Origin: Candidatus Hydrogenedens sp.
GTDB lineage: Bacteria; Hydrogenedentota; Hydrogenedentia; Hydrogenedentales; Hydrogenedentaceae
Direction: 5' to 3'
Length of the DNA: 64,000 nt
NCBI GenBank assembly: GCA_049968235.1
Contig: JBMFRC010000001.1
Coordinates: 288,001-352,000, forward strand
The translations under genes and the position numbers were made by a program. The notes under the pieces were generated by a model that worked only from the letters and a program-made list of their open reading frames with translations, was not told the DNA's origin and did not search any database. Positions 10,245-57,416 of this stretch are shown in pieces (position 1 is the stretch's first letter; the number at the start of each line of letters is the position of its first letter).

Positions 10245-10313
10245 AACTGCATTTTATTCTAATTGCTAACTTAATAACTCCATTCTACATTTCAATTCTA
10301 TAACCATAAATGT

Positions 10314-11921: not shown

Positions 11922-11939
11922 ACGAACTCCGAGTAAGCA

Positions 11940-13499
11940 CTATTCCGGGAATACACCAATGGGGACAGATATCGATTGGTTAATTATCGCCTGTATATCG
12001 CTTGCTCCCAAGCCATTACCATCAACATCTATATCTTTATCAATTGGTGTAATGCCCAAAATGACCTCTACTGCAAGGTCTACATCTTCATCGTTTACTT
12101 TACCATCCGAATTAATGTCACCATCACTCAGGGGAATGTCGCGACGGGTTGCCCATCCATCAACAACCTCAATTCCATTTACACGGTAAGGAATATATCC
12201 TGGTGCTGTAAAAGCAAGGTTGTATGTCCCGGGCAATAATAGCCGATGATAATTTCCTACACGCGGATGACTGAAAACAGGTTGCGTGTTGCCCTGCACT
12301 AAAACCTTTGTCCAGACAGGGTCTCCTGTATTGCGGTCATATACCAATCCACGAATTCCACGTAAAACGCACTCTAAATACGATAACATGGATTCACGGT
12401 TATTATTCCATAATGTCGGTATCCATGACCCAGCCGGGAATTTTGTGTTAAATAATTCTATCGTCATTTCAATACATCCCGTAAATCGATAATTCCAATC
12501 TTGCATTCCACCTGTAACGACATACCACTCCGCACCATTTGTTATTCCGCCGGGAAATTGAGAATTAGTGTACATGGGTGTGTTATGCATAGCATATTGC
12601 GTGGCTATCCACTTCATTAGTGCATCATCCGGTGTCGGTGCCTCAACACCACTGGGACCTCCATCATTGTCATATGGATAATTTACAACCATTGCACCTG
12701 TATGAAAATTTGCAGATAAACTAAAATTGTGTTCTAATGACCAACGCATAATATGCTGAATCTCGGGCTGCCTCGTTTCAATAGATATATTACCTCCATC
12801 ATAATAGAATGTATTGAAATCAGTAGGATAATTGGGAAAAGAACGGTTTAAATCTACGCCATTAGCATTAAACCGTGATACCGCTTCGCGTCCATCCGGA
12901 TTCATCAAAGGCACAATCCATATAGAAACCTCATCAACAACATTTTTAATCCTTGTATCTGTGGAATAGTTTTGCAGGAGATACTCCGCAAAAAACAGAC
13001 ATAACTCTGTCCCGATGGGTTCATCCCCATGTATTGTAGCAATATACTTAAACTCAGGCTCATCTTCTTCTATATCCGGATTATCCGTAATGTGAAGTGC
13101 CCACAATTCTCGTCTCTGCACAGATTGCCCCAATGACATTAAACGGGTAAGAGTCGGATATGTATCGGTAAGGTTTTGTAAAAATTGTGTTAATTCTGCG
13201 TAGTTGTGATACCCTGTAGGTGTTTTCTCTAAGTAAGGCGATGGGTCTGTCCCTATCACTTGTGGTTCAAAACCTTCATTTTGCAATTTTTTCAATGCAT
13301 ACTTCGGAATATAAACACGAGCATAATTCCCATCATACGAATCAACAGAATACCCTTGTTGCTCAAGATAATCAATGTCTGATAGGCTCTTAATTTTTAC
13401 CTGCACGATATACCATATGGGTAAGGATGCTTTCTGCGCAAAAACTTCAATATCGGAGAGAACAACAAATAACAATAGAATTAATACTAATTTTTTCAC
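11940..13499 (-). CDS. secreted M14 zinc carboxypeptidase with carboxypeptidase-regulatory-like domain and C-terminal dockerin-like module
   Basis: Signal peptide, then an M14 HxxE zinc motif (IHGDEPIGTE) and NPDGRE. The C-terminus has two dockerin repeats, DINSDGKVNDEDVDLAVEVILG and DVDGNGLGASDIQAIINQ. Confidence 0.75.
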   Translation of the reverse strand: MKKLVLILLLFVVLSDIEVFAQKASLPIWYIVQVKIKSLSDIDYLEQQGYSVDSYDGNYARVYIPKYALKKLQNEGFEPQVIGTDPSPYLEKTPTGYHNYAELTQFLQNLTDTYPTLTRLMSLGQSVQRRELWALHITDNPDIEEDEPEFKYIATIHGDEPIGTELCLFFAEYLLQNYSTDTRIKNVVDEVSIWIVPLMNPDGREAVSRFNANGVDLNRSFPNYPTDFNTFYYDGGNISIETRQPEIQHIMRWSLEHNFSLSANFHTGAMVVNYPYDNDGGPSGVEAPTPDDALMKWIATQYAMHNTPMYTNSQFPGGITNGAEWYVVTGGMQDWNYRFTGCIEMTIELFNTKFPAGSWIPTLWNNNRESMLSYLECVLRGIRGLVYDRNTGDPVWTKVLVQGNTQPVFSHPRVGNYHRLLLPGTYNLAFTAPGYIPYRVNGIEVVDGWATRRDIPLSDGDINSDGKVNDEDVDLAVEVILGITPIDKDIDVDGNGLGASDIQAIINQSISVPIGVFPE

Positions 13500-13922
13500 T
13501 TTTACATTAAGACCTTATGTCTACAGATTTCGATATAACCATTATAAAACTTTAAGTGATTGTTAACAACCTATCTATAAAAGAACTAAACATACATTGT
13601 TATTGATGCTAATACTAACAAATGGTACCTATAAATAAATCATATTATGCAAACAATATCATATTATATAATATTTGGGAAGGATAAGGGAGAAAAAATT
13701 GAAACAGAAAAATGAGGGAAGAGGTATATATTTTACGGAATCAATTGGTTAATTACCCGGTAAGGAAGAATTAAAATCAAAAAATCAACACGGTATAATA
13801 AAAAGGATGGAGCATAGAAGTTCTTAGATTATGTAGTGTTCAATCAGAAGTGGAAACGGCAGAGGGAAGTTTTGAATATCTAATAGTAATTTTCAAGGGT
13901 TTCTTTTTAGATATTTTTCAAT

Positions 13923-13951
13923 TTGTTTAAAAGATGTTTTTTTGCTATAAT
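13923..13951 (+). promoter_or_regulatory. candidate sigma70-type promoter for the rpsF operon
   Basis: TTGTTT, a 17-nt spacer, then TATAAT, about 55 nt upstream of the rpsF start codon in an AT-rich 500-bp intergenic region. Confidence 0.35.
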
Positions 13952-14006
13952 AAGAGTTTCTAAACGCCAGTAATATAAAAACCCAAACCGTAATGAGGAG
14001 TAAAAT

Positions 14007-14435
14007 ATGTCATTACGAACTTACGAAGCGCTGTTTATCGTCAGTCCGGAAGTGGAAGACGATAACATCCAGGCAATAGCCCGCGAGACCGAGAATCTGG
14101 TCATAAAGAGCGGAGGGGTTATTGTGCGCTCCGAAGTATGGGGTCGGCGGAGATTGGCTTATAAAGTCAAAAATTTTTTGGAGGGTATCTATATCCTGAT
14201 ACGTTTCCAATCCTCCCCCAACTTCATTGCGCGACTGGAAAATTATTTCCGCCTCAGTGAACAAATTATTCGCTACATCGTCGTTTATTTCGATGAAAAA
14301 ACGCTCCGATTGGAAGCAGAGCAGGCACAGCGCCGGCAGGAATTAGAATCCGGATACGAACAACAATCCGATAAAGATGAAAATCTTGCCCCCATTCCTA
14401 CAAGTGTTGCAGAGGAAGAGGAGGATGAGGAATAA
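14007..14435 (+). CDS. rpsF: 30S ribosomal protein S6
   Basis: MSLRTYEALFIVSPE...VWGRRRLAYKV with an acidic C-terminal tail. Confidence 0.9.
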   Translation: MSLRTYEALFIVSPEVEDDNIQAIARETENLVIKSGGVIVRSEVWGRRRLAYKVKNFLEGIYILIRFQSSPNFIARLENYFRLSEQIIRYIVVYFDEKTLRLEAEQAQRRQELESGYEQQSDKDENLAPIPTSVAEEEEDEE

Positions 14436-42523: not shown

Positions 42524-43759
42524 TTATCTTTCGTTAGAATTATTCTTCAGGATTCCCCTTACCTTGCTATTTTGTGTCAATAACAAGAAGGAAAGAATTA
42601 CTAAAACAAATATATCACTCAGATGTGAATTTGTTGAAGGTCCACCGGAACCGCAAGATACAATGAAAGTTCTCTTGGCTCCTTTACTCATTACCAGTAT
42701 AACCTCTGTCCCCTTAACAACTTCAGTTCCAACAGAGGGCTCGGTTCGGATTATGCTCCCTTTCGGTACATCTTTGCTATATTCTTCTTTAATCGTTGCG
42801 GATACCTTAAGTCCTGCAGATGTTAGTATTTGAATAGCCTCGTCTTTAGATTTTCCTTTAACATCCGGCACTTTTACTTTCTGAATAGGTTCTCCTTCAT
42901 TACTTCCTTCGGGAGTACCTTCAACTACACCTTCAGGGGTTCCTTCTGGACTACCTTCCTGATGACCTTCGACTGTTCCTTCGCCTTCTGCATTCCCTTC
43001 GACAGAACCTTCTGTGCTTCCTTCTATACTACCCTCTTGCATACCTTCAGGAATGCCTTCTGTTGAACCTTCTTGTGCTCCTTCTCCTTCGAGAGTGCCT
43101 TCTATTATACCTTCTTGCTGTCCTTCGGTGATTCCTTCAACATTTCCTTCGCCTTCTGCAGGCGGTTCTAATGGAAGTATTTTAGGTGCTTTCGGGTCAT
43201 CAAACATGGGAACATAAGCAAATATATCGTTGATTTGGACTTGAGCCAAATTTATTTGTGCATCCCCGGTTTGTTTCATACGGAACAATACTTTGAGCAA
43301 TTCAAGACTTCCCTTAGCACCGATATTTTCAGAACTGCTTCCTGCAATTTTCAGACTACCTGTAGCATTTGCATTAGAGTTATAACTTAACTTCATATTG
43401 CTAACTGCATCACCTAATACGACCTCCATTACCTCCGCATATTCTTTATCGAAATTAATTACAAGAGAGAAGCCCGCTATATTGGATACATTGTTCATTA
43501 CCACAGATACCCACTTTTCAGAGCCTGCTGTTCCAGATAAGTAATCTGTTAATTGGGCATAAACAGTTGCATCCTCTTTTTCTACTCGTGCAAGGGTAGA
43601 CTCCGCAGACAAAGAACCTGCATCTGCCAGCCATTTTAAGTCGCTTATATAGTCTTCATAACTCTTTGCGTCTATTTTCTTTCCTGTTGGCATTACATCT
43701 TTACCTGTTAACCAGCGTTGTAGCATGCTGGAGTCAGCACTATCCACCATTCCATCCAT
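42524..43759 (-). CDS. surface protein segment A: cohesin-like domain, xxEG tetrapeptide-repeat linker, PASTA domain and a C-terminal Cys/Gly-motif + TM + basic anchor (probably the 3' part of a disrupted giant gene)
   Basis: Cohesin-like IAGFSLVINFDKEYAEVMEV...GSLELLKVLFRMKQTGDAQI, about 25 xxEG repeats, and PASTA VPDVKGKSKDEAIQILTSAGLKV. The C-terminus is SCGSGGPS...IFVLVILSFLLL...KVRG. The frame is open upstream to 43855 and encodes a dockerin repeat (SGDFNMDGMVDSADSSMLQRWL). Confidence 0.6.
   Translation of the reverse strand: MDGMVDSADSSMLQRWLTGKDVMPTGKKIDAKSYEDYISDLKWLADAGSLSAESTLARVEKEDATVYAQLTDYLSGTAGSEKWVSVVMNNVSNIAGFSLVINFDKEYAEVMEVVLGDAVSNMKLSYNSNANATGSLKIAGSSSENIGAKGSLELLKVLFRMKQTGDAQINLAQVQINDIFAYVPMFDDPKAPKILPLEPPAEGEGNVEGITEGQQEGIIEGTLEGEGAQEGSTEGIPEGMQEGSIEGSTEGSVEGNAEGEGTVEGHQEGSPEGTPEGVVEGTPEGSNEGEPIQKVKVPDVKGKSKDEAIQILTSAGLKVSATIKEEYSKDVPKGSIIRTEPSVGTEVVKGTEVILVMSKGAKRTFIVSCGSGGPSTNSHLSDIFVLVILSFLLLTQNSKVRGILKNNSNER
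42900..43170 (-). repeat. coding tandem repeat: about 25 units of 12 nt encoding xxEG tetrapeptides
   Basis: Periodic ...ccttc... on the plus strand, which is GAAGG(N) on the coding strand. Similar arrays lie at about 44950-45135, 45545-45715 (including a perfect 21-nt duplication encoding MSEGEG twice), 52330-52440 and 54650-54690. Confidence 0.7.
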
Positions 43760-43845
43760 ATTAAAGTCACCGGATTTCTGAATACAGGGATTTCCTCCTG
43801 TGTTATTTGTCCAATAATCCAGGATATATTGTGTGTCTAAATCGT

Positions 43846-46179
43846 TTACTTCATATTATTATCCGCATCACCAAAGACACATCCGTCTGTAACACACAAT
43901 TGTCCATCTTCTAATATAAGTTCTAACGGTTGTGTAAATGAGGAGATCACATCGTATAGGCGAACTCCATTGCCGGCTCCATCATCCGGAATAAGGTGTA
44001 ACTGTCCACATAAAGGACCTAAAACAGATAAATTGGGTTTAGCAATAATATTAAACAGAGTCCCAGCACCATACAAACTTTCTGCTTTTATTCCTGCTGC
44101 AGCAATTCGAACATTAATTGTCTCACCTTGAGGTATAGCTAATGATGCTATCATCATCCCACTAGTAATACCTGATGGTAATACGGTGATAGTCTCGGGG
44201 TCTGATATTAAGGCAGATGGCAATTCCGAATCAATCTGTATGGATGTTGCTGAAACATCATAAACTGATTTTGAGTTCACGGGAATACGAATAAGTATTT
44301 CATCAAGATTTTGTGGATTCGGTTGTAGCCAATAAAGACTGGTATCTGTTATATTAACCTGTTCAGGGAAGAATACGGTTAAGTATTGTCCACGAACCGT
44401 CTCCGAAGCATCTGATAACACAGTATAACGGTCCACATCACTTACAGCCTGTATGGCATATTGGTAGTAAATCCCTAATTCTACCGCATTATCTATATAT
44501 TCTAATGTTGTTAGATAACCTTCATAAGGCAACCTGTCCGGATTATTCAATCGTTGCCAATCTGTCAATGAATTCCCATCTCTATCTACTGTCCTGCGAT
44601 ACACATTATAGCCAGCAATATTATACTCAGGATTTGTATCCCATGCTACGCGAACACTATGCGGTCCACTATAAGGACGTGGACGGAATGATTTTTGAAT
44701 ATTTCCGGGGTCTAATTCAACAAGCAATTCAGCATTGGTATCCACAGGTTGTATCGTTTTGGGCTTATATTTCCGCTTTGTAAAGTCCAAACGATATGGC
44801 GGTTGCAATGTACCTAAATCTGGAAAGGCAAAACGTCCATTATTATCTGTTAGCACAGGTTCATTCCCTTTACTATCTGCAACGCTAATTTGGACTAATA
44901 CACCGGGAATCGGGCTTTTGCTTATACTATTTATCACCTGACCACGAACACCTGCATATTCGCCTTCGAATGTCCCTTCCGTAGTTCCTTCAATAGTTCC
45001 CTCCGGAATTCCTTCAATTACTCCTTCAGGTATTCCTTCAACATTACCATCCATAGGACCTTCGGGAATCCCTTCGATAACACCTTCAATTGTTCCTTCC
45101 GTTACACCTTCAGGTGTCCCTTCTTCACAGGGTCCTGTGGAAACCCAGATATCCACAGGTATTTCTATTGTATTCTCATAATTACAAGTGCCTTCTACAG
45201 CCATAGGTTCTTGCAAAGCGATGTATCCAGCGGGATAATTATTATCACATACCTCAACAATCTGTCCTAATAATAATCCATAATCTACAATTAATTGTTG
45301 TGCCTCTTCCAATGACATACCTATAACATTAGGAACTATGGTACAGGGTCCACAAGAGATAATCAGGTCAACGATTGTTCCAATCTCTACTGTATTTCCA
45401 CCACCGGGTATTTGTTCAACGACTGTGCCTGCCGGGTATTGGTCATTGCACATCTCAATAATAGCACCAATATTTAGGTTGGCATTACTAATTTCTCCCG
45501 TTGCTTCCTGTTGCGGAAGTCCTATCATATATGGAACTATAGTTGTTTCAATAGCACCTTCGCCTTCAGACATCCCTTCGCCTTCAGACATCCCTTCGCC
45601 TTCGAATAGCCCTTCTGAACTGCCTTCAATACTACCTTCGGTAGTTCCTTCAAATGAACCTTCTCCTTCTACAATACCTTCAACTACACCGGGTTCAGGC
45701 TCTCCAATAACAGGATTGAGTGGGTCTTCAAATCTTGGGGTATGTCCATATTTATCGTGTATCTGAACCTGAACAAATTTAATATCGCCTTTTCCATCTC
45801 GCTTAATCTTAAACTTTACTTTTACCAATTCAACTTCTCCAGAGGTTCCCAACTCTTCTTCACCTCCCGCACTTATCCGCAAACTGCTACTGGAACCAGA
45901 ATTTACTACTTCATAATTCCATCGCCATATATTTGCTGCATTCACAGGTTTTACCTGCTTTACTTCAGCAAAATCACTATCATAATTCAAGACAAATTCA
46001 AATCCTGCCACATTTGTTACTTCATCAGCCACAATGGCAATCCATTTATCACTGCCTGCAGACCCTTCTAATGTGCCACGGAACCACACCTTTACTCCCA
46101 CATTATTCTTTTCTAATTTGGCTAACTTTGCTTGTGCGGATAGGGAACCATGGGAAGCTAACCATTTCAATTCATCCAC
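43846..46179 (-). CDS. surface protein segment B: cohesin-like, EG linkers, 2 PASTA, CarboxypepD_reg-like, Fn3-like, cohesin-like, then dockerin repeat 1 (interrupted). No signal peptide of its own, so it is probably the middle part of a disrupted giant gene.
   Basis: The domains can be read off the translation. The frame is open upstream to an in-frame TGA at 46270-46272, and the upstream region encodes dockerin repeats GDVNNDSVIDSTDEQFVLDYW and GDINLDG*VDSADSSLIQRWL. At the 3' end a -1 shift inside dockerin repeat 1 (GDADNNMK* versus in-frame VNDLDTQYILDYW) leads into segment A. Confidence 0.6.
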   Translation of the reverse strand: MDELKWLASHGSLSAQAKLAKLEKNNVGVKVWFRGTLEGSAGSDKWIAIVADEVTNVAGFEFVLNYDSDFAEVKQVKPVNAANIWRWNYEVVNSGSSSSLRISAGGEEELGTSGEVELVKVKFKIKRDGKGDIKFVQVQIHDKYGHTPRFEDPLNPVIGEPEPGVVEGIVEGEGSFEGTTEGSIEGSSEGLFEGEGMSEGEGMSEGEGAIETTIVPYMIGLPQQEATGEISNANLNIGAIIEMCNDQYPAGTVVEQIPGGGNTVEIGTIVDLIISCGPCTIVPNVIGMSLEEAQQLIVDYGLLLGQIVEVCDNNYPAGYIALQEPMAVEGTCNYENTIEIPVDIWVSTGPCEEGTPEGVTEGTIEGVIEGIPEGPMDGNVEGIPEGVIEGIPEGTIEGTTEGTFEGEYAGVRGQVINSISKSPIPGVLVQISVADSKGNEPVLTDNNGRFAFPDLGTLQPPYRLDFTKRKYKPKTIQPVDTNAELLVELDPGNIQKSFRPRPYSGPHSVRVAWDTNPEYNIAGYNVYRRTVDRDGNSLTDWQRLNNPDRLPYEGYLTTLEYIDNAVELGIYYQYAIQAVSDVDRYTVLSDASETVRGQYLTVFFPEQVNITDTSLYWLQPNPQNLDEILIRIPVNSKSVYDVSATSIQIDSELPSALISDPETITVLPSGITSGMMIASLAIPQGETINVRIAAAGIKAESLYGAGTLFNIIAKPNLSVLGPLCGQLHLIPDDGAGNGVRLYDVISSFTQPLELILEDGQLCVTDGCVFGDADNNMK

Positions 46180-46269
46180 ATATCCTTTGCCCGCTGTTGA
46201 GATTTTTGGAGGTGTAATACTTTTTCTTGCTAACCAACGCTGAATTAAACTGGAATCCGCACTATCTAC

Positions 46270-47574
46270 TCACCCATCGAGATTAATATCTCCTGATTTT
46301 AAGATGCATGAATGTGCACCTACTTTCCTAACCCAATAATCCAGAACAAATTGCTCATCTGTACTATCAATTACACTATCATTATTTACATCTCCATGAA
46401 TACATCCCCCTGAAACGCATAATCGTCCATCCACAAGAAGCACAGGTAAGGTTCTGTCTGATTTTGAATTACATTATATAACCGAACACCATTTCCCACA
46501 CCATCATCAGGAACTAAATGTAATAAACCACACTCATTCAAAAGATTTAAGCGAGGTTTTGCAAGAATATTAAATAATACTCCAGAACCATATAAACTCT
46601 CTGCTATCCCACCAGCAGATGATATACGAACATTAATTTTATCTCCATTTCTAACGGCATTGGCACTTATATTCATACCTGCGGTAATACCTGAGGGCTC
46701 CACCGTAATTGTGTCGGGATTGAGCAATAAACTTCTGGGCAATTCCGCATCGATTTGTATGGAAGTAGTGGAAACATCATATACAGCCTCTGAATTAACA
46801 GGTATTCTTACTAATTGTTGTTATGGATTTTGAGGGTCTCTTTCCCAGAGAAACATACCGCTATCTTTATAATTTACTTGTTCCGGGAAGAAAATAGTTA
46901 AAAATTGCCCTACTACATCTTCCGAAGCATCCGAAAGATTGGAATAACGGTCGACATCACTAACTGCCTGTATTGCATATTGATAGCGAATACCCGGTTG
47001 TATTGCGGTATCTGTATATTCTAATCCTCCAATATATCCTTCATAAGGAGGTAATCCCGGATTATTCAATTTTGCCCAAATAGAACTTCCTACTGTCCGA
47101 CGATATACATTATAGCCAGCAATGTTATATTCAGGATTTGTATCCCATCCAATACGGACACTATTGGTTCCTCCATAAACACGAGGAATGGTGGGTCTCT
47201 GAATATTTCCCGGCTCTATTTCCGCAAAAAGTTCTGCACCCGAATCAACAGGTTGAACCGTTTTCGGTTTAAATTTATTCTTTGTAAAATCCAGACGATA
47301 GGGAGGTAATAAACTCCCTAAATCGGAAAATTCAAATAGCCCATTTTTCATCTGTTAAAACAGGCTCTGTACTCTGTTTATCTGCAATACTTATTCCAAC
47401 AAGTACTCCCTCTACAGGTTTTTTGCTAATACTGTTAATAACCTGTCCCTTAACACTAAAGACTTTTTCTGCTACTGCTTGATTAGTAATAGCACATGCT
47501 ATTACTAATAGTGATATGCTCAAAAATATATTATTTTTTACAAAAATTGACTTTGCCCTACTTTTTGCATTCAT
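46270..47574 (-). pseudogene. surface protein segment C: signal peptide, CarboxypepD_reg-like, Fn3-like, cohesin-like, dockerin; disrupted by one frameshift at ~47340, an in-frame TAA at 46812-46814, a frameshift at ~46420 and a TGA at 46270
   Basis: Three ORF fragments (47332-47574, 46821-47351, 46386-46742) plus a dockerin-encoding stretch align residue-by-residue with the C-terminal half of segment B. The disruptions are a +1 in an A5 run, a CAA-like codon replaced by TAA, a -1 in a TT/TTT run, and TGA where the paralog has ATG. Confidence 0.6.
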
Positions 47575-49925: not shown

Positions 49926-52184
49926 ATGCATTTCTGGCTGATTAATGACAATGTTTTATTAAAATCTTCCCGTGCAGACATCGGTGGAAAAGGCTGGGGG
50001 CTGGTTCGATTAAAATTACAGGGATTAAATGTGCCACCTTTCGGAATAATCAGCACAGAAGGTGTGAAATATAAACTCTGGAAAACCGATACAGATTTTC
50101 AAAATGCAATAATGGCATGGTGTAAAGAGATATGGGATTGTTCCATAAGTAAGAAAGTAATCGTCCGCTCATCTGCATGTGAGGAAGACCATCAACATCA
50201 TTCTTTTGCAGGAAAGTTTTTAACAGAGGTTATAACAAAGCCAGAAGAACTTGTTCCAACACTGGACAGGATAGCCAAACATTATGCTTTAACTATAAAA
50301 ATGGATACGGGGAATTTTTCTGAAGGTCCCCATGGACTTGCAATTATTCTCCAGGAGTTTGTCAGTGGTGAAATCTCCGGCGTATGCTTTTCGACCCGAC
50401 CTATGAATGCAAATCCTCAACAAGTATATTGTGAAGTAGTAAATGGTGAAAATAAGTTGTTGGTTGATGGGGAAATACAACCCACTCGGATACTTTTTTA
50501 TCCCTCCACCGCAGAATTGATAGATTTTCAGGAAGGTTCTAATGGACCTGAATCAATACCTGAAGAATTATTAATAGAATTATCTCATGGGCTAATGAAG
50601 ATGGAATGGGATTACCGCACTGCAGTGGATATGGAATGGACATGGAATGGTAACAAGGTATGGTTTTTACAGATTCGCCCAATTACAAAGGTAACTCCTT
50701 CCCATAATTTATATCCAAAGGAATGTGCTACTTGCTGGTTTTTTGACCAACGTTTTATTGAACCGATTACAACTATTACCCAAACCACACTTATTCCGTT
50801 AATCCTGAGAAAGGCAATCACAGAGGGACTTAACATGCGACGAAAAAATACCCCCATTGAACCGTATTACTTTGGGGGTCAGGTGTATATCCCCCATCGG
50901 GCTTACTTCGATTTACTGGAGGGTTGTCCTAAATGGTGGCTTTCCTCCGATTTAAAACTGTTATTCCCTAATAACTGTGGTTGCCCGCATAAAAAAAAGA
51001 ACTTCCTGGGAATAGAATTCTGGCTGGATGCTTTTCGTTCATTGTTAAAACACTGGCGTGATGCTATTTTTGTGTTATGTCGCTGGGGACAATGGAAGAA
51101 GGATTTATCAAAGAAATTAAGTCTGTGGAATAAGGAGGATTTGTCAGAGATTACAACAGATGAATGGGTAACGCAATGGGAGCAATGCCAGAGATTATCC
51201 GAAGAATTTTTAGAAATACATCGCTGGGCAATACTCTGGTCCAGTTATGTATATCGTTTAGGGGGAAAGTATATCGTTCGTGGTAAGGAAAGACAGTATC
51301 CCTCTATTACGACACGGGCAAATCACATATTGACATCTTATTTATTCACCCGTGACATAAAATTATTAGCCCTCCTTCGCACTGAATATTCACACCGCAC
51401 AGAAAGTCTCGATTTTATATCTCCTCGATGGGGAGAATGGCTTTCCGGTGAGGAACAAAATGAATTGTTTAAAACGCAATTATTAGAGGAGAGGAAAGAT
51501 ATTCCATTAACATCACTGCAAACAAGGGAAAAAGCAGGTATTCTGTATCGTATTTTCGCAAAGTTTATACATCTGCGTGAGGAACAACGATTTGAATGGG
51601 AAAAAATATTAAATGTACAGAAAAAATTATTAAAGGAAGCAGGTAAACGATTGGTAGAAAAAGGTATCTTGATGGAGATAAATCAGGTCTGGTTTATAAG
51701 CGGGCTGGAATTAATGGAAGCACTTATAAAGGATAAGCCAATTAATCTAAAAGAAGTTTTGCTACGCCAACATCAATGGTGCGTTGAACATATATTTACA
51801 AAACCATTATTTATCAACGAAGGTGGTTTCATACTATCTACTTCCGAAAAAGATAAAGATACATGGTCAGGCTGGGGTGTGTCCGAAGGAAGAGTAAAAG
51901 GGACTGCCTATGTGAGCAGTAATCCGACTTCACTCCCATCCAATATCGCACATCCTCGTATTCTTGTAACACCTTGTTTAAATCCCGGACAGACATGGTG
52001 TCTGCAATACTGGGACGGTGTTCTATTGGAACGAGGCAGTGAACTGTCTCATCCTGCTATCATTGCACGGGAGATGAATATCCCCATGATTGCGAATTTA
52101 CCTGAGATTACACATAAACTAAACACGGGCGATTTAATTTATATAGATGCAACTTATGGTAAAGTTAGCCGTTTAAAATCTTAA
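49926..52184 (+). CDS. PEP-utilising enzyme family protein: N-terminal PPDK-type ATP-grasp (PEP/pyruvate-binding) domain plus C-terminal phosphohistidine mobile domain (rifampicin-phosphotransferase-like architecture)
   Basis: N-terminus ADIGGKGWGLVRL. The C-terminus has GRVKGTAYV... and ...ILVTPCLNPGQTW...ERGSELSHPAIIAREMNIPMIA (swivel His). There is no PEP-utilising TIM-barrel domain. Confidence 0.65.
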   Translation: MHFWLINDNVLLKSSRADIGGKGWGLVRLKLQGLNVPPFGIISTEGVKYKLWKTDTDFQNAIMAWCKEIWDCSISKKVIVRSSACEEDHQHHSFAGKFLTEVITKPEELVPTLDRIAKHYALTIKMDTGNFSEGPHGLAIILQEFVSGEISGVCFSTRPMNANPQQVYCEVVNGENKLLVDGEIQPTRILFYPSTAELIDFQEGSNGPESIPEELLIELSHGLMKMEWDYRTAVDMEWTWNGNKVWFLQIRPITKVTPSHNLYPKECATCWFFDQRFIEPITTITQTTLIPLILRKAITEGLNMRRKNTPIEPYYFGGQVYIPHRAYFDLLEGCPKWWLSSDLKLLFPNNCGCPHKKKNFLGIEFWLDAFRSLLKHWRDAIFVLCRWGQWKKDLSKKLSLWNKEDLSEITTDEWVTQWEQCQRLSEEFLEIHRWAILWSSYVYRLGGKYIVRGKERQYPSITTRANHILTSYLFTRDIKLLALLRTEYSHRTESLDFISPRWGEWLSGEEQNELFKTQLLEERKDIPLTSLQTREKAGILYRIFAKFIHLREEQRFEWEKILNVQKKLLKEAGKRLVEKGILMEINQVWFISGLELMEALIKDKPINLKEVLLRQHQWCVEHIFTKPLFINEGGFILSTSEKDKDTWSGWGVSEGRVKGTAYVSSNPTSLPSNIAHPRILVTPCLNPGQTWCLQYWDGVLLERGSELSHPAIIAREMNIPMIANLPEITHKLNTGDLIYIDATYGKVSRLKS

Positions 52185-55100
52185 GTTCGAAAGGTCTGAC
52201 TTGTCCAACGGGTGTTCTCTCCTTCGCATACCACTCATAGCAAGTAATAACATGCCCATCAACACAAAATCCAATAGATATTTTAACCAATTGTCTCCAT
52301 CCCTGGATTTATGATTACACCCACAAATTCCAGTATTTTGCCCCTCTCCTTCCCCTTCTCGAGTGCCCTCAACATTCCCTTCCACTATTCCTTCCGGATT
52401 ACCTTCTTGAGTTCCTTCCAGAGTTCCTTCACTAACTACTATACCTGCTTCTGCTTTATCAATATATCCATCCTTATTGGTATCAGCACTATCAAAAGTA
52501 TCTCGGGACAGGGTGGAATATCGTGCCACTGCTTCTTCATAGGAAACTTTCCCATCCTTATTCGTATCCACCAAATCAAAATTTGTTTTTAGGTCATTTA
52601 TGAATTGCTCTACCCCGGTTATGGTAATAGAAGCACCTTTTGCATTAATTACTCCATACCAACTCAGGTCATCTCCAAATTCCCCCTTTATTTTTACTTC
52701 GCGTATTTGAATGTTTATTTTCTTTGATGTCATCGTTGTGGGTTTAAACTTTATTTGTATAATTCGTCCTTTTTCTTTTGTTGTAATGGGTTTTTCGCTA
52801 CTTATTGAAACTTTCAAATAACCCTCACCGACTTCTGTATCCTTCTTAAAGTTGCTGGCAATATCTGCCATGTTTAATCCGTAGAAATTTATACCTTCAT
52901 CATAGGTTAAGAGCAAATCCATTCCCGCAACACCTAATAATGAACTTAATTCTATACCTGTGCGATATTCATTGTTTGAGTCCGGTGTTAGGTTATCTAC
53001 AACAATTTCCACCGTACGATTATTTTCCGTTTCTAACAAGGCTTTTTCCCCAATCACGGTTGAACTCGGATTGATTGGAAGCCCTGCCAATTTACGCAGT
53101 AGTAACGACACATCCGCACAATCTAAAATTCCATCTCCATTAAAATCACCTCTCCGTTTATCACATTCCAAATCAACAATACCTGCTTTGCGAACAATCT
53201 TGCGCAGGAACACAATCGTATCAGACATACCAATGTAACCATCAGTATCCATATCTCCATAGATGCAACGACTACTAATACAATTCGTATCTGGGTTTTC
53301 TTCCAATACATTGAGTTGTCCATGAACCAATTCTACTGGCAATTCCTTCTGCTGGGTATCTTTAATAATAACCTTCTGCAATTTCAGGTCTGTATCCTGA
53401 GCACAACTTCCTGCCACTGTATTCTGTCGCACACGAAAAACCATATCAAAGAGGTGTCCTTCTCCATAAAGCACTTTCTTCTCATTATCAACTCTGGGTC
53501 CCGCATGGAATTTTATAACACCCTGTGTACGGGTATCCGAAACAACCTCAAGATTTCGTGTTACAACCGTTTTTTGAACCTCTACAAGTTCAAGCACTGT
53601 GTTGTTGTAACTCACATTAATATCAATCGTATAGGGTTCCAATCCCCGTACACTGTTTATATTTATCGGTATCTGAATTGTATCCCCACTTCCTTCTGGT
53701 ATCCAATCGATTGTAGGTATCCATACACGTAGCTTACCCGGTTCTGCTTTGACAGGCTCTGTAGGGTCGCTTTGTTGTTGATTGGTAGCAATAGCAATCA
53801 AACGATAATACCATGCCCGAGAGGTATCCACTTCGTTATCTGTGTAATTTGTACCTGTAATAATATTTGAGGAAACAGTAATCCACGGTCCGTTTCGTGT
53901 TTCGCTTCGTTCTAATTGGTATCCTGCAAGATTTCGCTCCACATTAGGCTCCCAGATAAGATAAACATGGTCTATCCCTGAAAAAACCTGCAATCCATGA
54001 GGGGTTGAAATCTTTGTCCCAGCAGGGTCAGGACCATTACTTACAATTAACTCAACCGTTGTTCCGTTCAATACGGAACTTCCTCCAACAGGAGATTGTC
54101 CCATTACAACATTTTGTGAAACGGTATCGCTATACTGCATTACTGTACGGGTCAGCAAACCCGTAGATTGGATTTGCCCTATTGCAGAAGTTATATTCTG
54201 CCCAATAACATCCGGTACCGTGATATATGTGTTTCCAGAACATTGTCCTGTTGAAACCCAAATTGTAACTTCCGCACCTCGATTTACTCCACTATAAGCA
54301 ATTGGTGATTGGCGTATTACCTGCCCCATGGCAACATAATTGTTACATTCCCGTTCCACCTTAACATGCAAATCCGCTATCTGTATTGCCTCATTCGCCT
54401 GCTGTTCGCTTCTCCCTACAACATCTGGAACCAATACACCCGGACATAATCCACTGGATACAGTTAACTGAATATAGGTTCGTGATGAAATTACATCTCC
54501 CGATGATGGGATTTGACTCAGGACATTTCCCTGTGCCACTGTGTTACTACAGTTATAAGTCGTACGGATTCTATTCAGTCCTACACCTTCAAGAGTGTTT
54601 TTTGCTTGTTGTTCTGTCATACCGACCACCCCCGGAATAGTTACGAAGATTTCTCCTTCTCCTGTTCCTTCGCCCTCTCCCTCTCCTATAAGGTCTACAA
54701 TCCATTTAAGTAATGGATAATCTGTCCCTTCATTTGCAACCCATATATTAACAAAATCCCAATCGTTGTATGTTGCTTGCTTATACATTTCTATTGTGGT
54801 TTTTCCTGTTCCACCATCGGAAAACGATGTCCCGGCAGATTGCACATCCCAATAACTGGACACTACTGTTCCTCCATCGTTATACCCAACAAGCCCACCA
54901 ACATATAGTTTCCCCGTAACATTGGCACTGCTATAACAATTACGAATATTTGTTTCAAAAGAATTCTCAGTATTCATTTGGTACCCAACCAATCCACCGA
55001 TAAACGAATTTCCGCCAACAAAGGAATCATAAACAAAACTATCTGTTATATTGCCACCATAATTTATCCCTACAAAACCACCCACTCCATAATCAGCTGT

Positions 55101-57416
55101 TTCGCCATTCACAAGTATTTCACCGGCAACACATCTTAATATTTTCCCCTTATTTCCACCGACGAATCCACCAATACTATCATCTTGGCTTATTCCCGAA
55201 ATATAACTTGCCAGGACACCACATTCCACAATTTCACACTCACTATCAACAACAACACCCGCTATAGCACCCACAAAATAATACCCTGTAAAACTACTTT
55301 CAACAATTATTAAATTTTGAATCTTTCCCGGAGAGGTTACAATCCCAAACAGAGCTGTATAATCCGCCTCAGAATTATCAATATAAAGGTTAGAAATAAT
55401 ATGGTTTTGCCCATTAAAATTACCTCTAAATGGTTTTTCCCATGTTCCTATGGGTCTAAACCCTTTCCCATTATTCCAGTTGACTGTATCACTTGCATCT
55501 ATATCTTGAGTCAAAATATATGAACCAAAAGGTGGATAATCCGGGTCATTCCCTATCTTTTGCAACTCCTCAATACTATCTATTTCAATAGTTGGACAGG
55601 GACCTTTGAAAACGAACAAATATACTTCGCTGTTCTGTATAACTTGTGCTCCACCTTCGGGTGATTGACCTATAACAGTACCCACCGGAGTAATTTCTTC
55701 ACCGCACCCATAATCGACAATTACATGGAAACCCATTTCTTGTAGAGTAGTAACAGCATTTGCTTCTGTCATTCCCATTACATCCGGCATGTTAACATAA
55801 ACACAGCGTCCTGTTGAAACAACAATATATACAGTGCTATCTATTTGCACAACATTTCCTGCAATGGGTTCCTGCTCTATAACAACCCCTTCAGGAATAT
55901 TGTCATCACAACGGTATAGGACATTGGCAGAGAGATTTTGTACCTGAACTGTATTTATAGCGGTAGTTTCATCCATCCCGATAACATCAGGTATTGTTAT
56001 AGAACAGGGTCCTCGTGAAATAAGCAAAGAAATCTCCACATCAGGTAATTCATTTGTGCCCGGTACGGGGTTTTGAGTTATCACTGCCCCAGAAGGAACT
56101 CCATCATGGCAATCATAATATGTAGTGATTGTACCCGTAAACCCGGAGGAACGAAGTAAATTTATAGCTTCTGTCCCATTCATTCCTACAACATTAGGTA
56201 GGGGGATGAAACACGGACCTGTGGACACAATAATGGAAACAGTACCATTAAGCTCAACCGATGCCCCTGCTCCGGGCTGTTGGTCCATAACTACCCCCGC
56301 AGGATATATATTGCTACAACTATAAGACACATCAGCAATCAATCCCAATCCATTTAACATATTAACTGCATTTTCTTCCATCATTCCTAACAAACTTGGA
56401 ACTTCCACCGTATGTTGTATATTTATAACCCATCTCAAATAGGGATAGTCTGTTCCCTCTTCTATACCCCATACATTCGTGAAATCCCAGCCTGCATAAG
56501 TCGCCTGTTGTTTCATTTCTCCCGTAGTTTTCCCTGTTCCACCATCAGAAAAGAACATTTGGGACACAGTCGTATCCCAATAACTGGATGTTACAGTCCC
56601 CCCATCATTAAATCCGATAAGTCCACCTATATACATGGTTCCTGCTACAGCCGAACTACTATAACAATTTGTAACTGTGCCAGTGCTTTTCTTTGAATTT
56701 TCGAGTATTCCAACCAGACCACCGACACCGTATGCTCCTGCTATTGAGGTGATATATGAAGATGAATACACACAACTATTTATAATAACTCCACCTGTAT
56801 TACGACCCACCAATCCACCCACTCCATATTGAGCATAACTATCATAAATTGTCGAATTAGAAACTACACATCTATCTATAACTCCATAATTTCCTCCTAC
56901 CAATCCACCAACACTATTATATATGCTTCCCATCCCTTCAATATCTGAAGAGGCAACTCCACATTCTCTGATTTCTCCCGCCATATTTAATCCAACCAAT
57001 CCCCCGATAAATAAAGAACCTGCGATATTGGAATTAAATAAAATAACATTGTGAACATTCCCGCCGGATATATTTCCAAACAAACCTGCAAATTCAGATT
57101 GTCTATTAATATAAAGATAGTAAATACCATAATTCTGACCATCAAAACTCCCTGTAAATGGATTATTCGTATCCCCTATCGGTTTAAATCCTCTGCCACT
57201 ATCCCAATTAATTGTATCGCTGGCATCTATATCCCGTGTTAATACATAATTCCCGTTAAGTGGATATTCAGGCTCATTCCCTATTCTCTGCAAATCTACA
57301 ATATTGCTTATAGGAATACCTTGTGCGGAAACCAAAATACACATGCAAAAAACAAAAATGGTCAATAGTGATAAAATATAGGTAGATTCTCTCGTAGACA
57401 TTTTACAATACCTCAA
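52173..57416 (-). CDS. giant (1747-aa) secreted surface protein: signal peptide, GLUG-like beta-helix module, 4 PASTA, second GLUG-like module, EG linker, 3 PASTA, Fn3-like, cohesin-like, dockerin, cohesin-like, EF-hand pair, xxEG linker, C-terminal Cys/Gly-motif + TM + basic anchor
   Basis: An intact ORF. Repeated GGLVG motifs occur in two ~300-aa modules that are about 50% identical to each other. There are seven PASTA units (…PDV[IV]GM…). The dockerin is GDMDTDGYIGMSDTIVFLRK…GDFNGDGILDCADVSLLLRKL and the EF-hand pair DTNKDGKVSYEE / DTNKDGYIDKAE. The C-terminus is GICGCNHKS…LLDFVLMGMLLLAMSGMRRRE. Confidence 0.8.
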   Translation of the reverse strand: MRYCKMSTRESTYILSLLTIFVFCMCILVSAQGIPISNIVDLQRIGNEPEYPLNGNYVLTRDIDASDTINWDSGRGFKPIGDTNNPFTGSFDGQNYGIYYLYINRQSEFAGLFGNISGGNVHNVILFNSNIAGSLFIGGLVGLNMAGEIRECGVASSDIEGMGSIYNSVGGLVGGNYGVIDRCVVSNSTIYDSYAQYGVGGLVGRNTGGVIINSCVYSSSYITSIAGAYGVGGLVGILENSKKSTGTVTNCYSSSAVAGTMYIGGLIGFNDGGTVTSSYWDTTVSQMFFSDGGTGKTTGEMKQQATYAGWDFTNVWGIEEGTDYPYLRWVINIQHTVEVPSLLGMMEENAVNMLNGLGLIADVSYSCSNIYPAGVVMDQQPGAGASVELNGTVSIIVSTGPCFIPLPNVVGMNGTEAINLLRSSGFTGTITTYYDCHDGVPSGAVITQNPVPGTNELPDVEISLLISRGPCSITIPDVIGMDETTAINTVQVQNLSANVLYRCDDNIPEGVVIEQEPIAGNVVQIDSTVYIVVSTGRCVYVNMPDVMGMTEANAVTTLQEMGFHVIVDYGCGEEITPVGTVIGQSPEGGAQVIQNSEVYLFVFKGPCPTIEIDSIEELQKIGNDPDYPPFGSYILTQDIDASDTVNWNNGKGFRPIGTWEKPFRGNFNGQNHIISNLYIDNSEADYTALFGIVTSPGKIQNLIIVESSFTGYYFVGAIAGVVVDSECEIVECGVLASYISGISQDDSIGGFVGGNKGKILRCVAGEILVNGETADYGVGGFVGINYGGNITDSFVYDSFVGGNSFIGGLVGYQMNTENSFETNIRNCYSSANVTGKLYVGGLVGYNDGGTVVSSYWDVQSAGTSFSDGGTGKTTIEMYKQATYNDWDFVNIWVANEGTDYPLLKWIVDLIGEGEGEGTGEGEIFVTIPGVVGMTEQQAKNTLEGVGLNRIRTTYNCSNTVAQGNVLSQIPSSGDVISSRTYIQLTVSSGLCPGVLVPDVVGRSEQQANEAIQIADLHVKVERECNNYVAMGQVIRQSPIAYSGVNRGAEVTIWVSTGQCSGNTYITVPDVIGQNITSAIGQIQSTGLLTRTVMQYSDTVSQNVVMGQSPVGGSSVLNGTTVELIVSNGPDPAGTKISTPHGLQVFSGIDHVYLIWEPNVERNLAGYQLERSETRNGPWITVSSNIITGTNYTDNEVDTSRAWYYRLIAIATNQQQSDPTEPVKAEPGKLRVWIPTIDWIPEGSGDTIQIPININSVRGLEPYTIDINVSYNNTVLELVEVQKTVVTRNLEVVSDTRTQGVIKFHAGPRVDNEKKVLYGEGHLFDMVFRVRQNTVAGSCAQDTDLKLQKVIIKDTQQKELPVELVHGQLNVLEENPDTNCISSRCIYGDMDTDGYIGMSDTIVFLRKIVRKAGIVDLECDKRRGDFNGDGILDCADVSLLLRKLAGLPINPSSTVIGEKALLETENNRTVEIVVDNLTPDSNNEYRTGIELSSLLGVAGMDLLLTYDEGINFYGLNMADIASNFKKDTEVGEGYLKVSISSEKPITTKEKGRIIQIKFKPTTMTSKKINIQIREVKIKGEFGDDLSWYGVINAKGASITITGVEQFINDLKTNFDLVDTNKDGKVSYEEAVARYSTLSRDTFDSADTNKDGYIDKAEAGIVVSEGTLEGTQEGNPEGIVEGNVEGTREGEGEGQNTGICGCNHKSRDGDNWLKYLLDFVLMGMLLLAMSGMRRREHPLDKSDLSNLRF

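What the first reader, a model, noticed from the sequence alone, without database searches (positions are those of the whole stretch)
11940..13499. Dockerin-tagged M14 carboxypeptidase: candidate client enzyme for the cohesin-bearing giant proteins
A secreted M14 zinc carboxypeptidase carries the HxxE motif (IHGDEPIGTE), a CarboxypepD_reg-like domain and a C-terminal two-repeat dockerin. It sits 29 kb from the cohesin-like proteins. M14 includes gamma-D-glutamyl-diamino-acid peptidases that act on peptidoglycan stem peptides. With the PASTA arrays, which sense peptidoglycan, this suggests a surface complex directed at peptidoglycan, either the organism's own or a host's or prey's. That role is inferred.
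Basis: inference. Interest (0 to 1): 0.6.

Follow-up and report, generated by a model that had tools for sequence, protein, structure and literature searches.

The report
Dockerin-tagged CPD-like carboxypeptidase, Hydrogenedens
This gene encodes a secreted zinc carboxypeptidase of the animal carboxypeptidase-D type that ends in a small calcium-binding docking tag; it is a well-conserved, fairly ordinary enzyme of the phylum Hydrogenedentota, and nothing yet shows that it docks onto the nearby cohesin-bearing surface proteins or acts on peptidoglycan.

Summary
Window 11940-13499(-) encodes a 519-aa protein with a signal peptide, a pro-segment-like N-domain, an M14 catalytic domain, a transthyretin-like domain and a C-terminal two-segment dockerin. 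It is 100% identical to a Candidatus Hydrogenedens MAG protein.

The enzyme is M14B-like (CPD/CPM/CPN type), not a peptidoglycan-type M14. All catalytic residues are present, and the S1' residues predict removal of C-terminal Lys/Arg.

The window's own dockerin scores below the Pfam threshold. It is homologous to 44 of 50 ortholog tails that match Dockerin_1, and it is as conserved as the catalytic domain among close relatives.

Cohesin proteins with PASTA arrays do exist in the window. One is an intact 1747-aa gene. The other is a locus broken by in-frame stops and frameshifts.

Nothing ties them specifically to this enzyme. The gap of 29-39 kb is filled with housekeeping genes. No window-type cohesin lies within 10 kb of the ortholog in any of 80 species. 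The tag is phylum-wide, whereas named close relatives of the scaffold are all from the genus.

Orthologs often sit beside a NagZ-like GH3 gene, and a nearby M4 endopeptidase carries the same tag. A similar peptidase-docking complex (the 'planctosome') has already been hypothesised. Verdict: new member of a known kind, modest interest.

The parts
11940..13499 (-). Whole gene: pre-pro-like M14B-type carboxypeptidase with transthyretin-like domain and dockerin (519 aa, GTG start; stop codon 11940-11942)
   Evidence: ORF list. 100% identical to NCBI 'M14 family zinc carboxypeptidase [Candidatus Hydrogenedens sp.]'. AlphaFold model mean pLDDT 94.9, pTM 0.91.
13437..13499 (-). Signal peptide, residues 1-21 (MKKLVLILLLFVVLSDIEVFA|QK)
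   Evidence: Read from the sequence: basic n-region, hydrophobic core, V-F-A before the predicted cut. Modelled as one helix, residues 2-23. No dedicated signal-peptide predictor was available. Poorly conserved among orthologs, as signal peptides usually are.
13245..13415 (-). N-terminal beta-alpha-beta-beta-alpha-beta unit, residues 29-85, resembling an M14A activation (pro) segment
   Evidence: Secondary structure from the models. Modelled alone, its two best PDB matches are pro-CPA 1jqg (E=0.016) and the human pro-CPA2 activation domain 1o6x (E=0.045, TM 0.56/0.53), but no match reaches E<=1e-3. No sequence-level match in Pfam or PDB. Zymogen structures align over about 410 columns against about 315 for mature CPA.
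12363..13214 (-). M14 catalytic domain, residues 96-379. Zinc ligands H157, E160, H266. Catalytic R209, N218, R219, Y326, E348. S1' residues D277 and Q333.
   Evidence: Pfam E=1.5e-65. PDB CPD-II 1h8l E=7e-79. Residues invariant or nearly invariant in 108 orthologs. Mapping to CPA numbering.
12129..12359 (-). Transthyretin-like (CarboxypepD_reg) beta-sandwich, residues 381-457
   Evidence: Pfam 26.6 bits, below the 32.3 cutoff. PDB 5aq0 E=1.2e-8. All-beta in the model. Aligned with the same domain of CPN, CPD and CPM.
11964..12119 (-). Dockerin, residues 461-512: loop 1 D461-D472 with helix 470-480, loop 2 D491-D501 (one residue short) with helix 499-509. Followed by a clade-specific extension PIGVFPE (513-519).
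   Evidence: 77-92% identical among orthologs that are at least 77% identical overall, similar to the catalytic domain.
52173..57416 (-). Candidate docking partner, not shown to bind. Intact 1747-aa protein: signal peptide, GLUG blocks, 7 PASTA, cohesin A (about 53298-53735), internal dockerin (about 53067-53267), cohesin B (about 52614-53021), EF-hand pair, Cys-rich motif plus C-terminal transmembrane helix.
   Evidence: Pfam PASTA 3.3e-85, Glug 1.1e-20, Cohesin 3.9e-12 (47 bits, 2 stretches), EF-hand. Translation. Coordinates.
42524..47574 (-). Second cohesin/PASTA locus, disrupted. One modular frame of about 1680 codons, broken by 2 in-frame stops and 3 frameshifts. Cohesins at 45775-46071 and 43247-43537.
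   Evidence: Pfam Cohesin 24.4 and 29.7 bits; Dockerin_1 24.0 bits truncated at an ORF end. Junction reading in three frames.

Best explanation
The gene encodes a Sec-exported metallocarboxypeptidase of the M14B (carboxypeptidase D/E/M/N) type. A zinc site (H157, E160, H266) and the standard catalytic residues remove one C-terminal residue at a time. The S1' pocket carries Asp277 and Gln333, the M14B arrangement, so the preferred substrates should be peptides ending in Lys or Arg.

A transthyretin-like domain follows the catalytic domain, as in all M14B enzymes. Unlike animal M14B enzymes, a small N-terminal unit with the fold of an M14A pro-segment precedes it. This unit may act as a folding or inhibitory pro-domain (inferred).

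The C-terminal 52 residues are a calcium-binding dockerin. It most likely tethers the enzyme to a cohesin-bearing envelope protein, placing it beside other dockerin-tagged peptidases; an M4 endopeptidase carries the same tag in relatives. The endopeptidase would cut proteins and the carboxypeptidase would trim the fragments for uptake.

In this genus the only cohesin carriers seen are the PASTA/GLUG/cohesin proteins of the same window. They are the obvious candidate partners, but the pairing is not shown.

Shown: gene, domains, catalytic residues, subfamily, homology and conservation of the dockerin, presence of cohesins. Inferred: substrate preference, pro-domain role, tethering, identity of the partner.
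For: Subfamily. PDB sequence hits are CPD-II 7e-79, CPM 4e-70 and CPN 9e-70, against CPT 4e-28 and CPA about 1e-7. Foldseek top hits are CPN, CPD and CPM with target TM-score 0.82-0.88 at 36-40% identity. The transthyretin-like domain defines M14B, and active M14B members cleave C-terminal basic residues (PMC7698808).

Catalytic and S1' residues are invariant or nearly invariant in 108 orthologs.

Dockerin. 44 of 50 ortholog tails hit Pfam Dockerin_1. The profile hits solved dockerins. The tail is confidently folded and as conserved as the catalytic domain in close relatives.

Shared tag. A 1299-aa M4 peptidase with Dockerin_1 (42 bits) lies within 10 kb of the M14 ortholog in L052, with a same-length ORF carrying the same tail in L063. 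The tails are 42-44% identical to the M14 tails of the same genomes.

Cohesins in the same window, and in named Hydrogenedens MAGs.

Precedent: dockerin-bearing peptidases, including a carboxypeptidase, in R. flavefaciens (PMC2930009), and the planctosome hypothesis (PMC6461901).
Against: No binding data, and no co-folding could be run.

The window's own tail is below the Pfam threshold (12.2 against 22.9 bits), and its second calcium loop is one residue short.

There is no conserved linkage. No window-type cohesin lies within 10 kb of the ortholog in any of 80 species.

The tag is phylum-wide (60 of 80), while close relatives of the scaffold cohesin are few (8 at E<=1e-30, 95 at <=1e-10).

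The M14 tail resembles the dockerins embedded in the scaffolds only weakly.

The pro-segment reading rests on weak structural matches (E=0.016-0.045) with no sequence support.

Substrate preference is read from residues, not measured. If the cell is diderm, a Sec signal alone places the enzyme in the periplasm, not on the surface.
Confidence: 0.6

Rival explanations
1. Orphan dockerin. The tail is a calcium-binding stabilising or attachment module whose partner is not the window's PASTA/cohesin proteins. The partner could be a different cohesin elsewhere in the genome, a non-cohesin ligand, or nothing. The enzyme then acts as a free or otherwise-anchored peptide-trimming carboxypeptidase.
For: The tag is present in 60 of 80 species-level orthologs across Hydrogenedentota, whereas named close relatives of the scaffold are all from the genus Hydrogenedens. 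No synteny with cohesins in 1.16 Mb of flanks. Only weak similarity to the scaffold's own dockerins. Non-cellulosomal dockerins without matching scaffoldins are widely reported (Peer et al. 2009, as cited in PMC9012536).
Against: The cohesin type of the window has 737 representatives at E<=1e-3, so diverged partners could exist across the phylum. The genus-specific tail is strongly conserved, which implies a constrained function. Cohesins are present in the same genome.
Confidence: 0.3
2. First reader's model. The enzyme is a client of a PASTA-array surface complex aimed at peptidoglycan, the organism's own or that of prey or necromass, and trims stem peptides.
For: The cohesin proteins carry 7, 2 and 1 PASTA domains. 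In 16 of 80 orthologous loci, including all five of the closest relatives that have upstream sequence, the M14 gene sits beside a GH3 whose closest solved relatives are NagZ/YbbD/LpqI-type beta-N-acetylglucosaminidases, which are muropeptide-recycling enzymes. An acidic S1' residue (D277) could in principle accept the side-chain amine of Lys or mDAP (inference).
Against: The enzyme is M14B-like. The MpaA model scores 22.6 bits against a cutoff of 157, over 30 residues. It has HxxE, not the QxxE of Csd4, and M14C enzymes are a different subfamily (PMC4220969). Stem peptides place gamma-D-Glu or D-Ala next to the scissile bond, which no characterised M14B enzyme is known to accept (my own knowledge). 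The GH3 neighbour lacks the NagZ KH-FPG-H-G...D-S/T-H motif in all 18 copies aligned and is absent from this window. The co-tagged enzyme in relatives is a general M4 endopeptidase.
Confidence: 0.1

Closest known systems
Metazoan M14B (N/E subfamily) carboxypeptidases: CPD domain II (1h8l/1qmu), CPM (1uwy), CPN (2nsm)
   Same: Catalytic domain followed directly by a transthyretin-like domain. 36-40% identity over about 390 columns, target TM-score 0.82-0.88. Same zinc, catalytic and S1' (Asp207/Gln255-equivalent) residues.
   Different: Bacterial. Carries an N-terminal pro-segment-like unit, which animal M14B enzymes lack, and a C-terminal dockerin in place of a membrane anchor or GPI signal.
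'Planctosome' hypothesis in freshwater Planctomycetes (Andrei et al. 2019, PMC6461901)
   Same: Non-cellulosomal cohesin-dockerin system proposed to tether a zinc endopeptidase plus an M14 carboxypeptidase for polypeptide degradation. Here an M14 carries a dockerin, and an M4 endopeptidase carries the same tag in relatives.
   Different: Different phylum. M14B-like rather than M14A. M4 rather than M12B. Candidate scaffolds carry PASTA and GLUG arrays plus an internal dockerin and an EF-hand pair, rather than lamin-tail, P-domain or hyalin-repeat modules. Both systems are untested hypotheses.
Dockerin-bearing peptidases of the Ruminococcus flavefaciens FD-1 cellulosome (PMC2930009)
   Same: 16 peptidase modules, including one carboxypeptidase, carry dockerins, so peptidases as cohesin clients are established by genome analysis.
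   Different: That system is a true cellulosome dominated by carbohydrate-active enzymes. No dockerin-bearing glycoside hydrolase was seen in this window.
Type I dockerins of Clostridium (Acetivibrio) thermocellum enzymes (1ohz, 2ccl, 4fl4)
   Same: Two tandem calcium-loop plus helix segments. The family profile matches them at E=4e-7 to 2e-6.
   Different: The window copy scores below the Pfam threshold. Its second loop is one residue shorter. Residues 10-11 of segment 1 are Asp-Glu rather than the Ser-Thr typical of C. thermocellum (the latter from my own knowledge).
Peptidoglycan-acting M14 enzymes: MpaA, M14C gamma-D-Glu-mDAP peptidase, H. pylori Csd4
   Same: Same M14 fold and zinc-dependent mechanism.
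   Different: No specific sequence similarity (MpaA model 22.6 of 157 bits). Csd4 uses QxxE and different accessory domains. None of them has the transthyretin-like domain.

Membership tests
Peptidase family M14, subfamily M14B (N/E) | Zinc ligands H-x-x-E ... H | tested here: met
   H157, E160, H266; invariant in 108 orthologs.
Peptidase family M14, subfamily M14B (N/E) | Catalytic residues equivalent to CPA R127, N144, R145, Y248, E270 | tested here: met
   R209, N218, R219, Y326, E348. The R127 equivalence rests on the match to CPD-II spacing.
Peptidase family M14, subfamily M14B (N/E) | Transthyretin-like domain directly after the catalytic domain (PMC7698808) | tested here: met
   Pfam is sub-threshold at 26.6 of 32.3 bits, but 5aq0 matches at E=1.2e-8 and the structural alignment with CPN, CPD and CPM includes it.
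Peptidase family M14, subfamily M14B (N/E) | Closer to M14B than to M14A, C or D members | tested here: met
   1h8l 7e-79 against CPT 4e-28, CPA about 1e-7 and the bacterial cytosolic-carboxypeptidase-like enzyme 4a37 at 8e-5. MpaA model far below cutoff.
Peptidase family M14, subfamily M14B (N/E) | S1' Asp at CPA position 207 and Gln at 255; cleavage of C-terminal Lys/Arg | tested here: inconclusive
   The residues are present: D277 is invariant and Q333 is conserved in at least 90% of orthologs. Activity was not measured.
Peptidase family M14, subfamily M14B (N/E) | No M14A-type pro-segment | tested here: inconclusive
   A pro-segment-like N-terminal unit is present by fold, but the matches are weak and there is no sequence support.
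Dockerin type I (PF00404) | Score above the Pfam gathering threshold | tested here: not met
   12.2 bits against 22.9 for the window's tail. However, 44 of 50 homologous tails match at E<=0.01.
Dockerin type I (PF00404) | Two tandem segments, each a 12-residue calcium loop followed by a helix | tested here: inconclusive
   Segment 1 is canonical. Segment 2's loop is one residue short. Two helices are predicted at high confidence.
Dockerin type I (PF00404) | Calcium-dependent binding to a cohesin | not testable with these tools
   Needs binding assays or multimer modelling.
Cohesin-dockerin multi-enzyme complex (cellulosome-like or planctosome-like) | Cohesin-bearing scaffold encoded in the same genome | tested here: met
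   Cohesin 47, 24.4 and 29.7 bits on three ORFs. Only the 1747-aa gene is intact.
Cohesin-dockerin multi-enzyme complex (cellulosome-like or planctosome-like) | Several different dockerin-tagged enzymes | tested here: inconclusive
   In the window only this M14 carries an enzyme-borne dockerin. An M4 peptidase carries one in two related species. A genome-wide count was not possible.
Cohesin-dockerin multi-enzyme complex (cellulosome-like or planctosome-like) | Matching specificity between enzyme dockerin and scaffold cohesin | not testable with these tools
   No binding or co-folding test was available.
Peptidoglycan-acting M14 (MpaA / M14C / Csd4) | Sequence membership in MpaA or M14C models; QxxE in Csd4 | tested here: not met
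   MpaA NF007897 scores 22.6 bits against a cutoff of 157. The motif here is HxxE, while Csd4 uses QxxE.

The most novel reading that the evidence does not exclude
Candidatus Hydrogenedens builds a peptidase-based, cellulosome-like assembly on membrane-anchored scaffolds. The PASTA arrays of the scaffolds grip peptidoglycan, either the cell's own sacculus or cell-wall debris or prey. Their cohesins recruit dockerin-tagged peptidases (this M14B-like carboxypeptidase, and M4 endopeptidases) and possibly NagZ-like GH3 proteins. That would make it a cell-wall-directed 'proteolysome'.
Probability: 0.12. Interest if true: 0.65.

Novelty: new member of a known kind. Interest (0 to 1): 0.33.

Why it matters
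If the tag does dock this enzyme onto the PASTA/cohesin proteins, Hydrogenedentota would provide a second, independent example of cohesin-dockerin assemblies built around peptidases rather than carbohydrate-active enzymes. The first is the untested planctosome proposal. It would also link PASTA domains to an extracytoplasmic enzyme scaffold.

On its own the gene shows that M14B-type carboxypeptidases, best known from animal peptide-hormone processing, form a large bacterial clade: at least 565 relatives among the species-representative genome contigs. That clade has its own accessory modules, a pro-like N-domain and a dockerin. This helps peptidase classification and the interpretation of protein scavenging in an uncultured phylum common in anaerobic digesters, but it will not surprise specialists.

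Tried and rejected
1. Homology search with the tail alone found no candidates at the word-index stage.
The single scan went to the M14 family instead.
3. Sequence tests of the N-terminal unit against Pfam and PDB gave only spurious DARPin and low-complexity hits.
4. The promoter and terminator scan of 10200-14050 was at chance level: 16 promoter-like sites against 18.0 +/- 4.6 expected, and 2 terminator-like sites against 2.1 expected. No claim is made about transcription. The 18-nt gap to the downstream gene suggests co-transcription, but that neighbour is not conserved: in the 80% ortholog (L003) the next gene is on the opposite strand.
5. An operon with the downstream 535-aa membrane protein (10314-11921) was considered. 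It has no Pfam hit, only a weak NCBIfam hit to a putative glycosyltransferase family (28.8 of 200 bits). Rejected as a conserved partner.
6. An inactive pseudo-peptidase was rejected because every catalytic residue is conserved.
7. A decaying, functionless tail was rejected because the tail is 77-92% identical among close orthologs, similar to the catalytic domain.
8. My first GH3 count (10 loci) was too strict. A re-count with a looser position rule gives 16 of 80.
9. In-silico cohesin-dockerin docking was not attempted.
Full report
1. WHAT IS AT THE COORDINATES

It is 100% identical to an NCBI protein named 'M14 family zinc carboxypeptidase [Candidatus Hydrogenedens sp.]', found on three MAG contigs, the longest 421 kb. 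The window therefore comes from a Hydrogenedentota genome. The closest named species is Ca. Hydrogenedens terephthalaticus, whose ortholog is 86% identical.

2. DOMAIN CLAIMS

Catalytic domain. Pfam gives Peptidase_M14 at E=1.5e-65 for residues 104-369.

Transthyretin-like domain. CarboxypepD_reg scores 26.6 bits, under its curated cutoff of 32.3. The domain is nevertheless real. The isolated transthyretin-like domain of CPD (5aq0) matches at E=1.2e-8. The AlphaFold model (mean pLDDT 94.9, pTM 0.91) aligns with CPN, CPD and CPM over about 390 columns that include it.

Dockerin.
- No dockerin model hit in the full-length scan.
- The isolated tail scored 12.2 bits (E=0.21, cutoff 22.9), though it covers profile positions 2-53 of 57. 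On its own sequence the tail would not be called a dockerin.
- The tail is conserved in register across the ortholog family.
- 44 of 50 orthologous tails match Dockerin_1 individually, best E=5.7e-14.
- A profile of the tails finds solved type I dockerins (4fl4, 2ccl, 1ohz) at E=4e-7 to 2e-6.
- The model shows two loop-helix units, with helices at 470-480 and 499-509.
- Segment 1 is a textbook calcium loop (D461, N463, D465, N469, D472).
- Segment 2 (D491, D493, N495 ... D501) is one residue shorter than in the orthologs that keep a canonical loop.
- Among orthologs at least 77% identical overall, the tail is 77-92% identical. That is comparable to the catalytic domain (82-94%) and better than the N-terminal unit, so the tail is under constraint.

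3. WHICH M14

All the best solved relatives are M14B enzymes: duck CPD-II 7e-79, CPM 4e-70, CPN 9e-70 and fly CPD 1e-65. These compare with carboxypeptidase T at 4e-28 and CPA/CPB at about 1e-7. Structure search agrees, with target TM-scores of 0.82-0.88 at 36-40% identity.

The curated MpaA (murein tripeptide amidase) model scores 22.6 bits against a cutoff of 157, over 30 residues.

The transthyretin-like domain is the defining accessory domain of M14B. All active M14B members cleave C-terminal basic residues (PMC7698808). Peptidoglycan-acting M14 enzymes belong to M14C or to the Csd4 group, which uses QxxE (PMC4220969).

Zinc ligands (H157, E160, H266), catalytic residues (R209, N218, R219, Y326, E348) and the S1' positions equivalent to CPA 207 and 255 (D277, Q333) are invariant or nearly invariant in 108 orthologs. 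Reading Asp207/Gln255 as the basic-specificity pattern of M14B rests on my own knowledge of the CPD-II structure papers.

I therefore predict a CPB-like enzyme that trims C-terminal Lys or Arg. This is inferred, not measured.

4. AN EXTRA N-TERMINAL UNIT

Residues 29-85 form a beta-alpha-beta-beta-alpha-beta unit.
- Zymogen structures (pro-CPB 1kwm, pro-CPA2 1aye) align with the full model over about 410 columns, against about 315 for mature CPA.
- Modelled alone (core pLDDT about 93), its two best matches among 350,542 PDB chains are the Helicoverpa pro-CPA and the human pro-CPA2 activation domain.
- The E-values are only 0.016 and 0.045, and the fold is a common ferredoxin-like one.
- Sequence profiles find nothing.

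I call it pro-segment-like and treat a zymogen or folding role as inference.

5. SURROUNDINGS

Upstream lie about 500 bp of intergenic DNA, then rpsF-ssb on the other strand. The same-species loci also show rpsR, rplI and dnaB beyond them. Downstream, 18 nt away, is a 535-aa polytopic membrane protein with only a weak glycosyltransferase-family hit. That neighbour is not conserved in the 80% ortholog.

Between this gene and the cohesin genes lie genes for RelA/SpoT, acetyl-CoA metabolism, a chemoreceptor and a multihaem cytochrome. There is no island-like continuity.

6. THE COHESIN PROTEINS

They are real.

The 1747-aa protein (52173-57416, minus strand) has a signal peptide, two GLUG blocks, seven PASTA domains, two cohesins (47 bits), a dockerin between them, an EF-hand pair and a Cys-rich motif followed by a C-terminal transmembrane helix.

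The second locus (47574-42524) reads as one modular frame of about 1680 codons with the same module order. It is interrupted by an in-frame TAA, an in-frame TGA inside a dockerin calcium loop, and three frameshifts, one at an A5 run. It is either a pseudogene or poorly assembled.

An exhaustive profile search finds 737 representatives with this cohesin type at E<=1e-3, but only 8 at E<=1e-30. The closest ones share the PASTA/GLUG/cohesin architecture. Every one that carries a name is from Candidatus Hydrogenedens.

7. IS THE ENZYME A CLIENT OF THESE PROTEINS?

For: enzyme and scaffolds co-occur in one genome and one genus, and the tag is conserved.

Against, or neutral:
- In 80 species-level loci (1.16 Mb), 60 orthologs keep the tag, plus one where a frameshift splits it off. 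None has a window-type cohesin within 10 kb.
- The tag is far more widespread than close relatives of this scaffold.
- The M14 tail resembles the scaffold-borne dockerins only weakly.

The Hydrogenedens clade has a distinctive tail (DVDLAVEVILG against the phylum consensus DVQLVVNAxLG). This coincides with the genus-restricted scaffold and might reflect co-evolution, but that is speculation. No binding or co-folding test was possible.

8. TWO NEW LEADS FROM RELATIVES

(a) The only other ORFs carrying this dockerin type in the flanks are two 1299-aa ORFs, in L052 and L063. The L052 one was scanned and is an M4 thermolysin-like endopeptidase with Dockerin_1 at 42 bits. Their tails are 42-44% identical to the M14 tails of the same genomes. 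This points to a shared tag on cooperating proteolytic enzymes.

(b) In 16 of 80 loci, including all five of the closest relatives that have upstream sequence, the M14 gene is next to a roughly 670-aa GH3+PKD gene. Its best solved relatives are NagZ/YbbD/LpqI-type beta-N-acetylglucosaminidases, with 6k5j at E=4e-24. All 18 copies aligned lack the NagZ His/Asp motif. The gene has no dockerin and is absent from this window. This is the only evidence that leans towards a cell-wall or amino-sugar theme, and it is indirect.

9. COMPARISON WITH WHAT IS KNOWN

- Dockerin-bearing peptidases, including a carboxypeptidase, are catalogued in R. flavefaciens (PMC2930009).
- Non-cellulosomal cohesin/dockerin modules are widespread (Peer et al. 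2009, cited in PMC9012536).
- A cohesin-dockerin complex tethering an M12B endopeptidase and an M14A carboxypeptidase for polypeptide degradation has been proposed for Planctomycetes as the 'planctosome' (PMC6461901).
- JGI's automatic annotation already lists 'Zinc carboxypeptidase/Carboxypeptidase regulatory-like domain/Dockerin type I domain' for orthologs.
- My literature searches found nothing specific on Hydrogenedentota cohesin/dockerin systems or peptidases.

10. VERDICT

- The enzyme is a dockerin-tagged secreted carboxypeptidase in a genome that encodes cohesin/PASTA proteins.
- It is an M14B-type enzyme that probably trims basic C-terminal residues, not a peptidoglycan-type M14.
- Its pairing with these particular scaffolds is untested and has no support from gene linkage.
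- It is a new member of a known kind. Interest is modest (0.33).
- The more interesting object is the PASTA/GLUG/cohesin scaffold family, not this enzyme.

Noticed in passing
window 42524-47574 (-): One modular giant frame of about 1680 codons (signal peptide, CarboxypepD_reg, FN3, cohesin-like, dockerin, cohesin, 2 PASTA, then the series again, ending in a transmembrane helix). It is broken by an in-frame TAA (~46822), an in-frame TGA inside a dockerin calcium loop (~46272) and three frameshifts (~47340 at an A5 run, ~46440, ~43850). It is a pseudogene or an assembly problem. NCBI lists a 679-aa close relative of this cohesin (P0126) as 'partial'; its accession prefix matches one of the M14 protein's accessions, suggesting the same assembly.
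   Followed up: partly
window 52173-52330 (-); also the C-terminus of 42524-43759 (-), and P0121, P0122: The scaffold proteins end in a Gly/Glu-rich linker, a Cys-rich motif (GICGCN; GCGCGG in relatives), a hydrophobic helix and an Arg cluster. This looks like a C-terminal sorting or lipidation signal. No curated NCBIfam model matched it.
   Followed up: partly
L003 7956-9971, L004 7698-9716, L005 7544-9601 and 15 further loci: A divergent GH3+PKD gene lies next to the M14 ortholog in 16 of the 80 scanned loci. It is closest to NagZ/YbbD beta-N-acetylglucosaminidases, but the KHFPGHG...DSH motif is replaced by FPGG(G/Q/A)xNR, and the nucleophile region reads GV(I/V)xAGP(L/M)D. It may be a new GH3 subgroup or a non-catalytic binder.
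   Followed up: partly
L052 954-4850 (-), L063 175-4071 (-): Two 1299-aa ORFs carrying the same dockerin type lie about 5 kb from the M14 ortholog. The L052 one was scanned and is an M4 thermolysin-like peptidase with an FTP propeptide motif, He_PIG and TIG domains and a clear C-terminal Dockerin_1.
   Followed up: partly
window 38155-41601 (+): A 1148-aa protein combining multihaem cytochrome c domains (Cytochrome_C7, NapC/NirT-like, MtrC-like) with a C-terminal cytochrome b561 membrane domain. This fusion suggests electron transfer across the membrane.
   Followed up: no
window 11940-11963 (-), residues 513-519: A clade-specific C-terminal extension 'PIG(V/I)FPE' follows the dockerin. It is 57-100% conserved in the Hydrogenedens clade and absent from distant orthologs. 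Function unknown.
   Followed up: no
L062 6008-18139, L078 5750-15460, L067 3-8297: In MAGs labelled Pirellulales, Planctomycetaceae and Nealsonbacteria, the same M14 domain sits inside open reading frames of 2765-4044 codons without the dockerin tail.
   Followed up: no
window 10314-11921 (-) and 19366-20964 (-): Two polytopic membrane proteins of about 530 aa. One is annotated PMT_2 in the same-species locus. The other has only a weak hit to the LA_3751/LA_3752 putative glycosyltransferase family and lies 18 nt downstream of the M14 gene.
   Followed up: no
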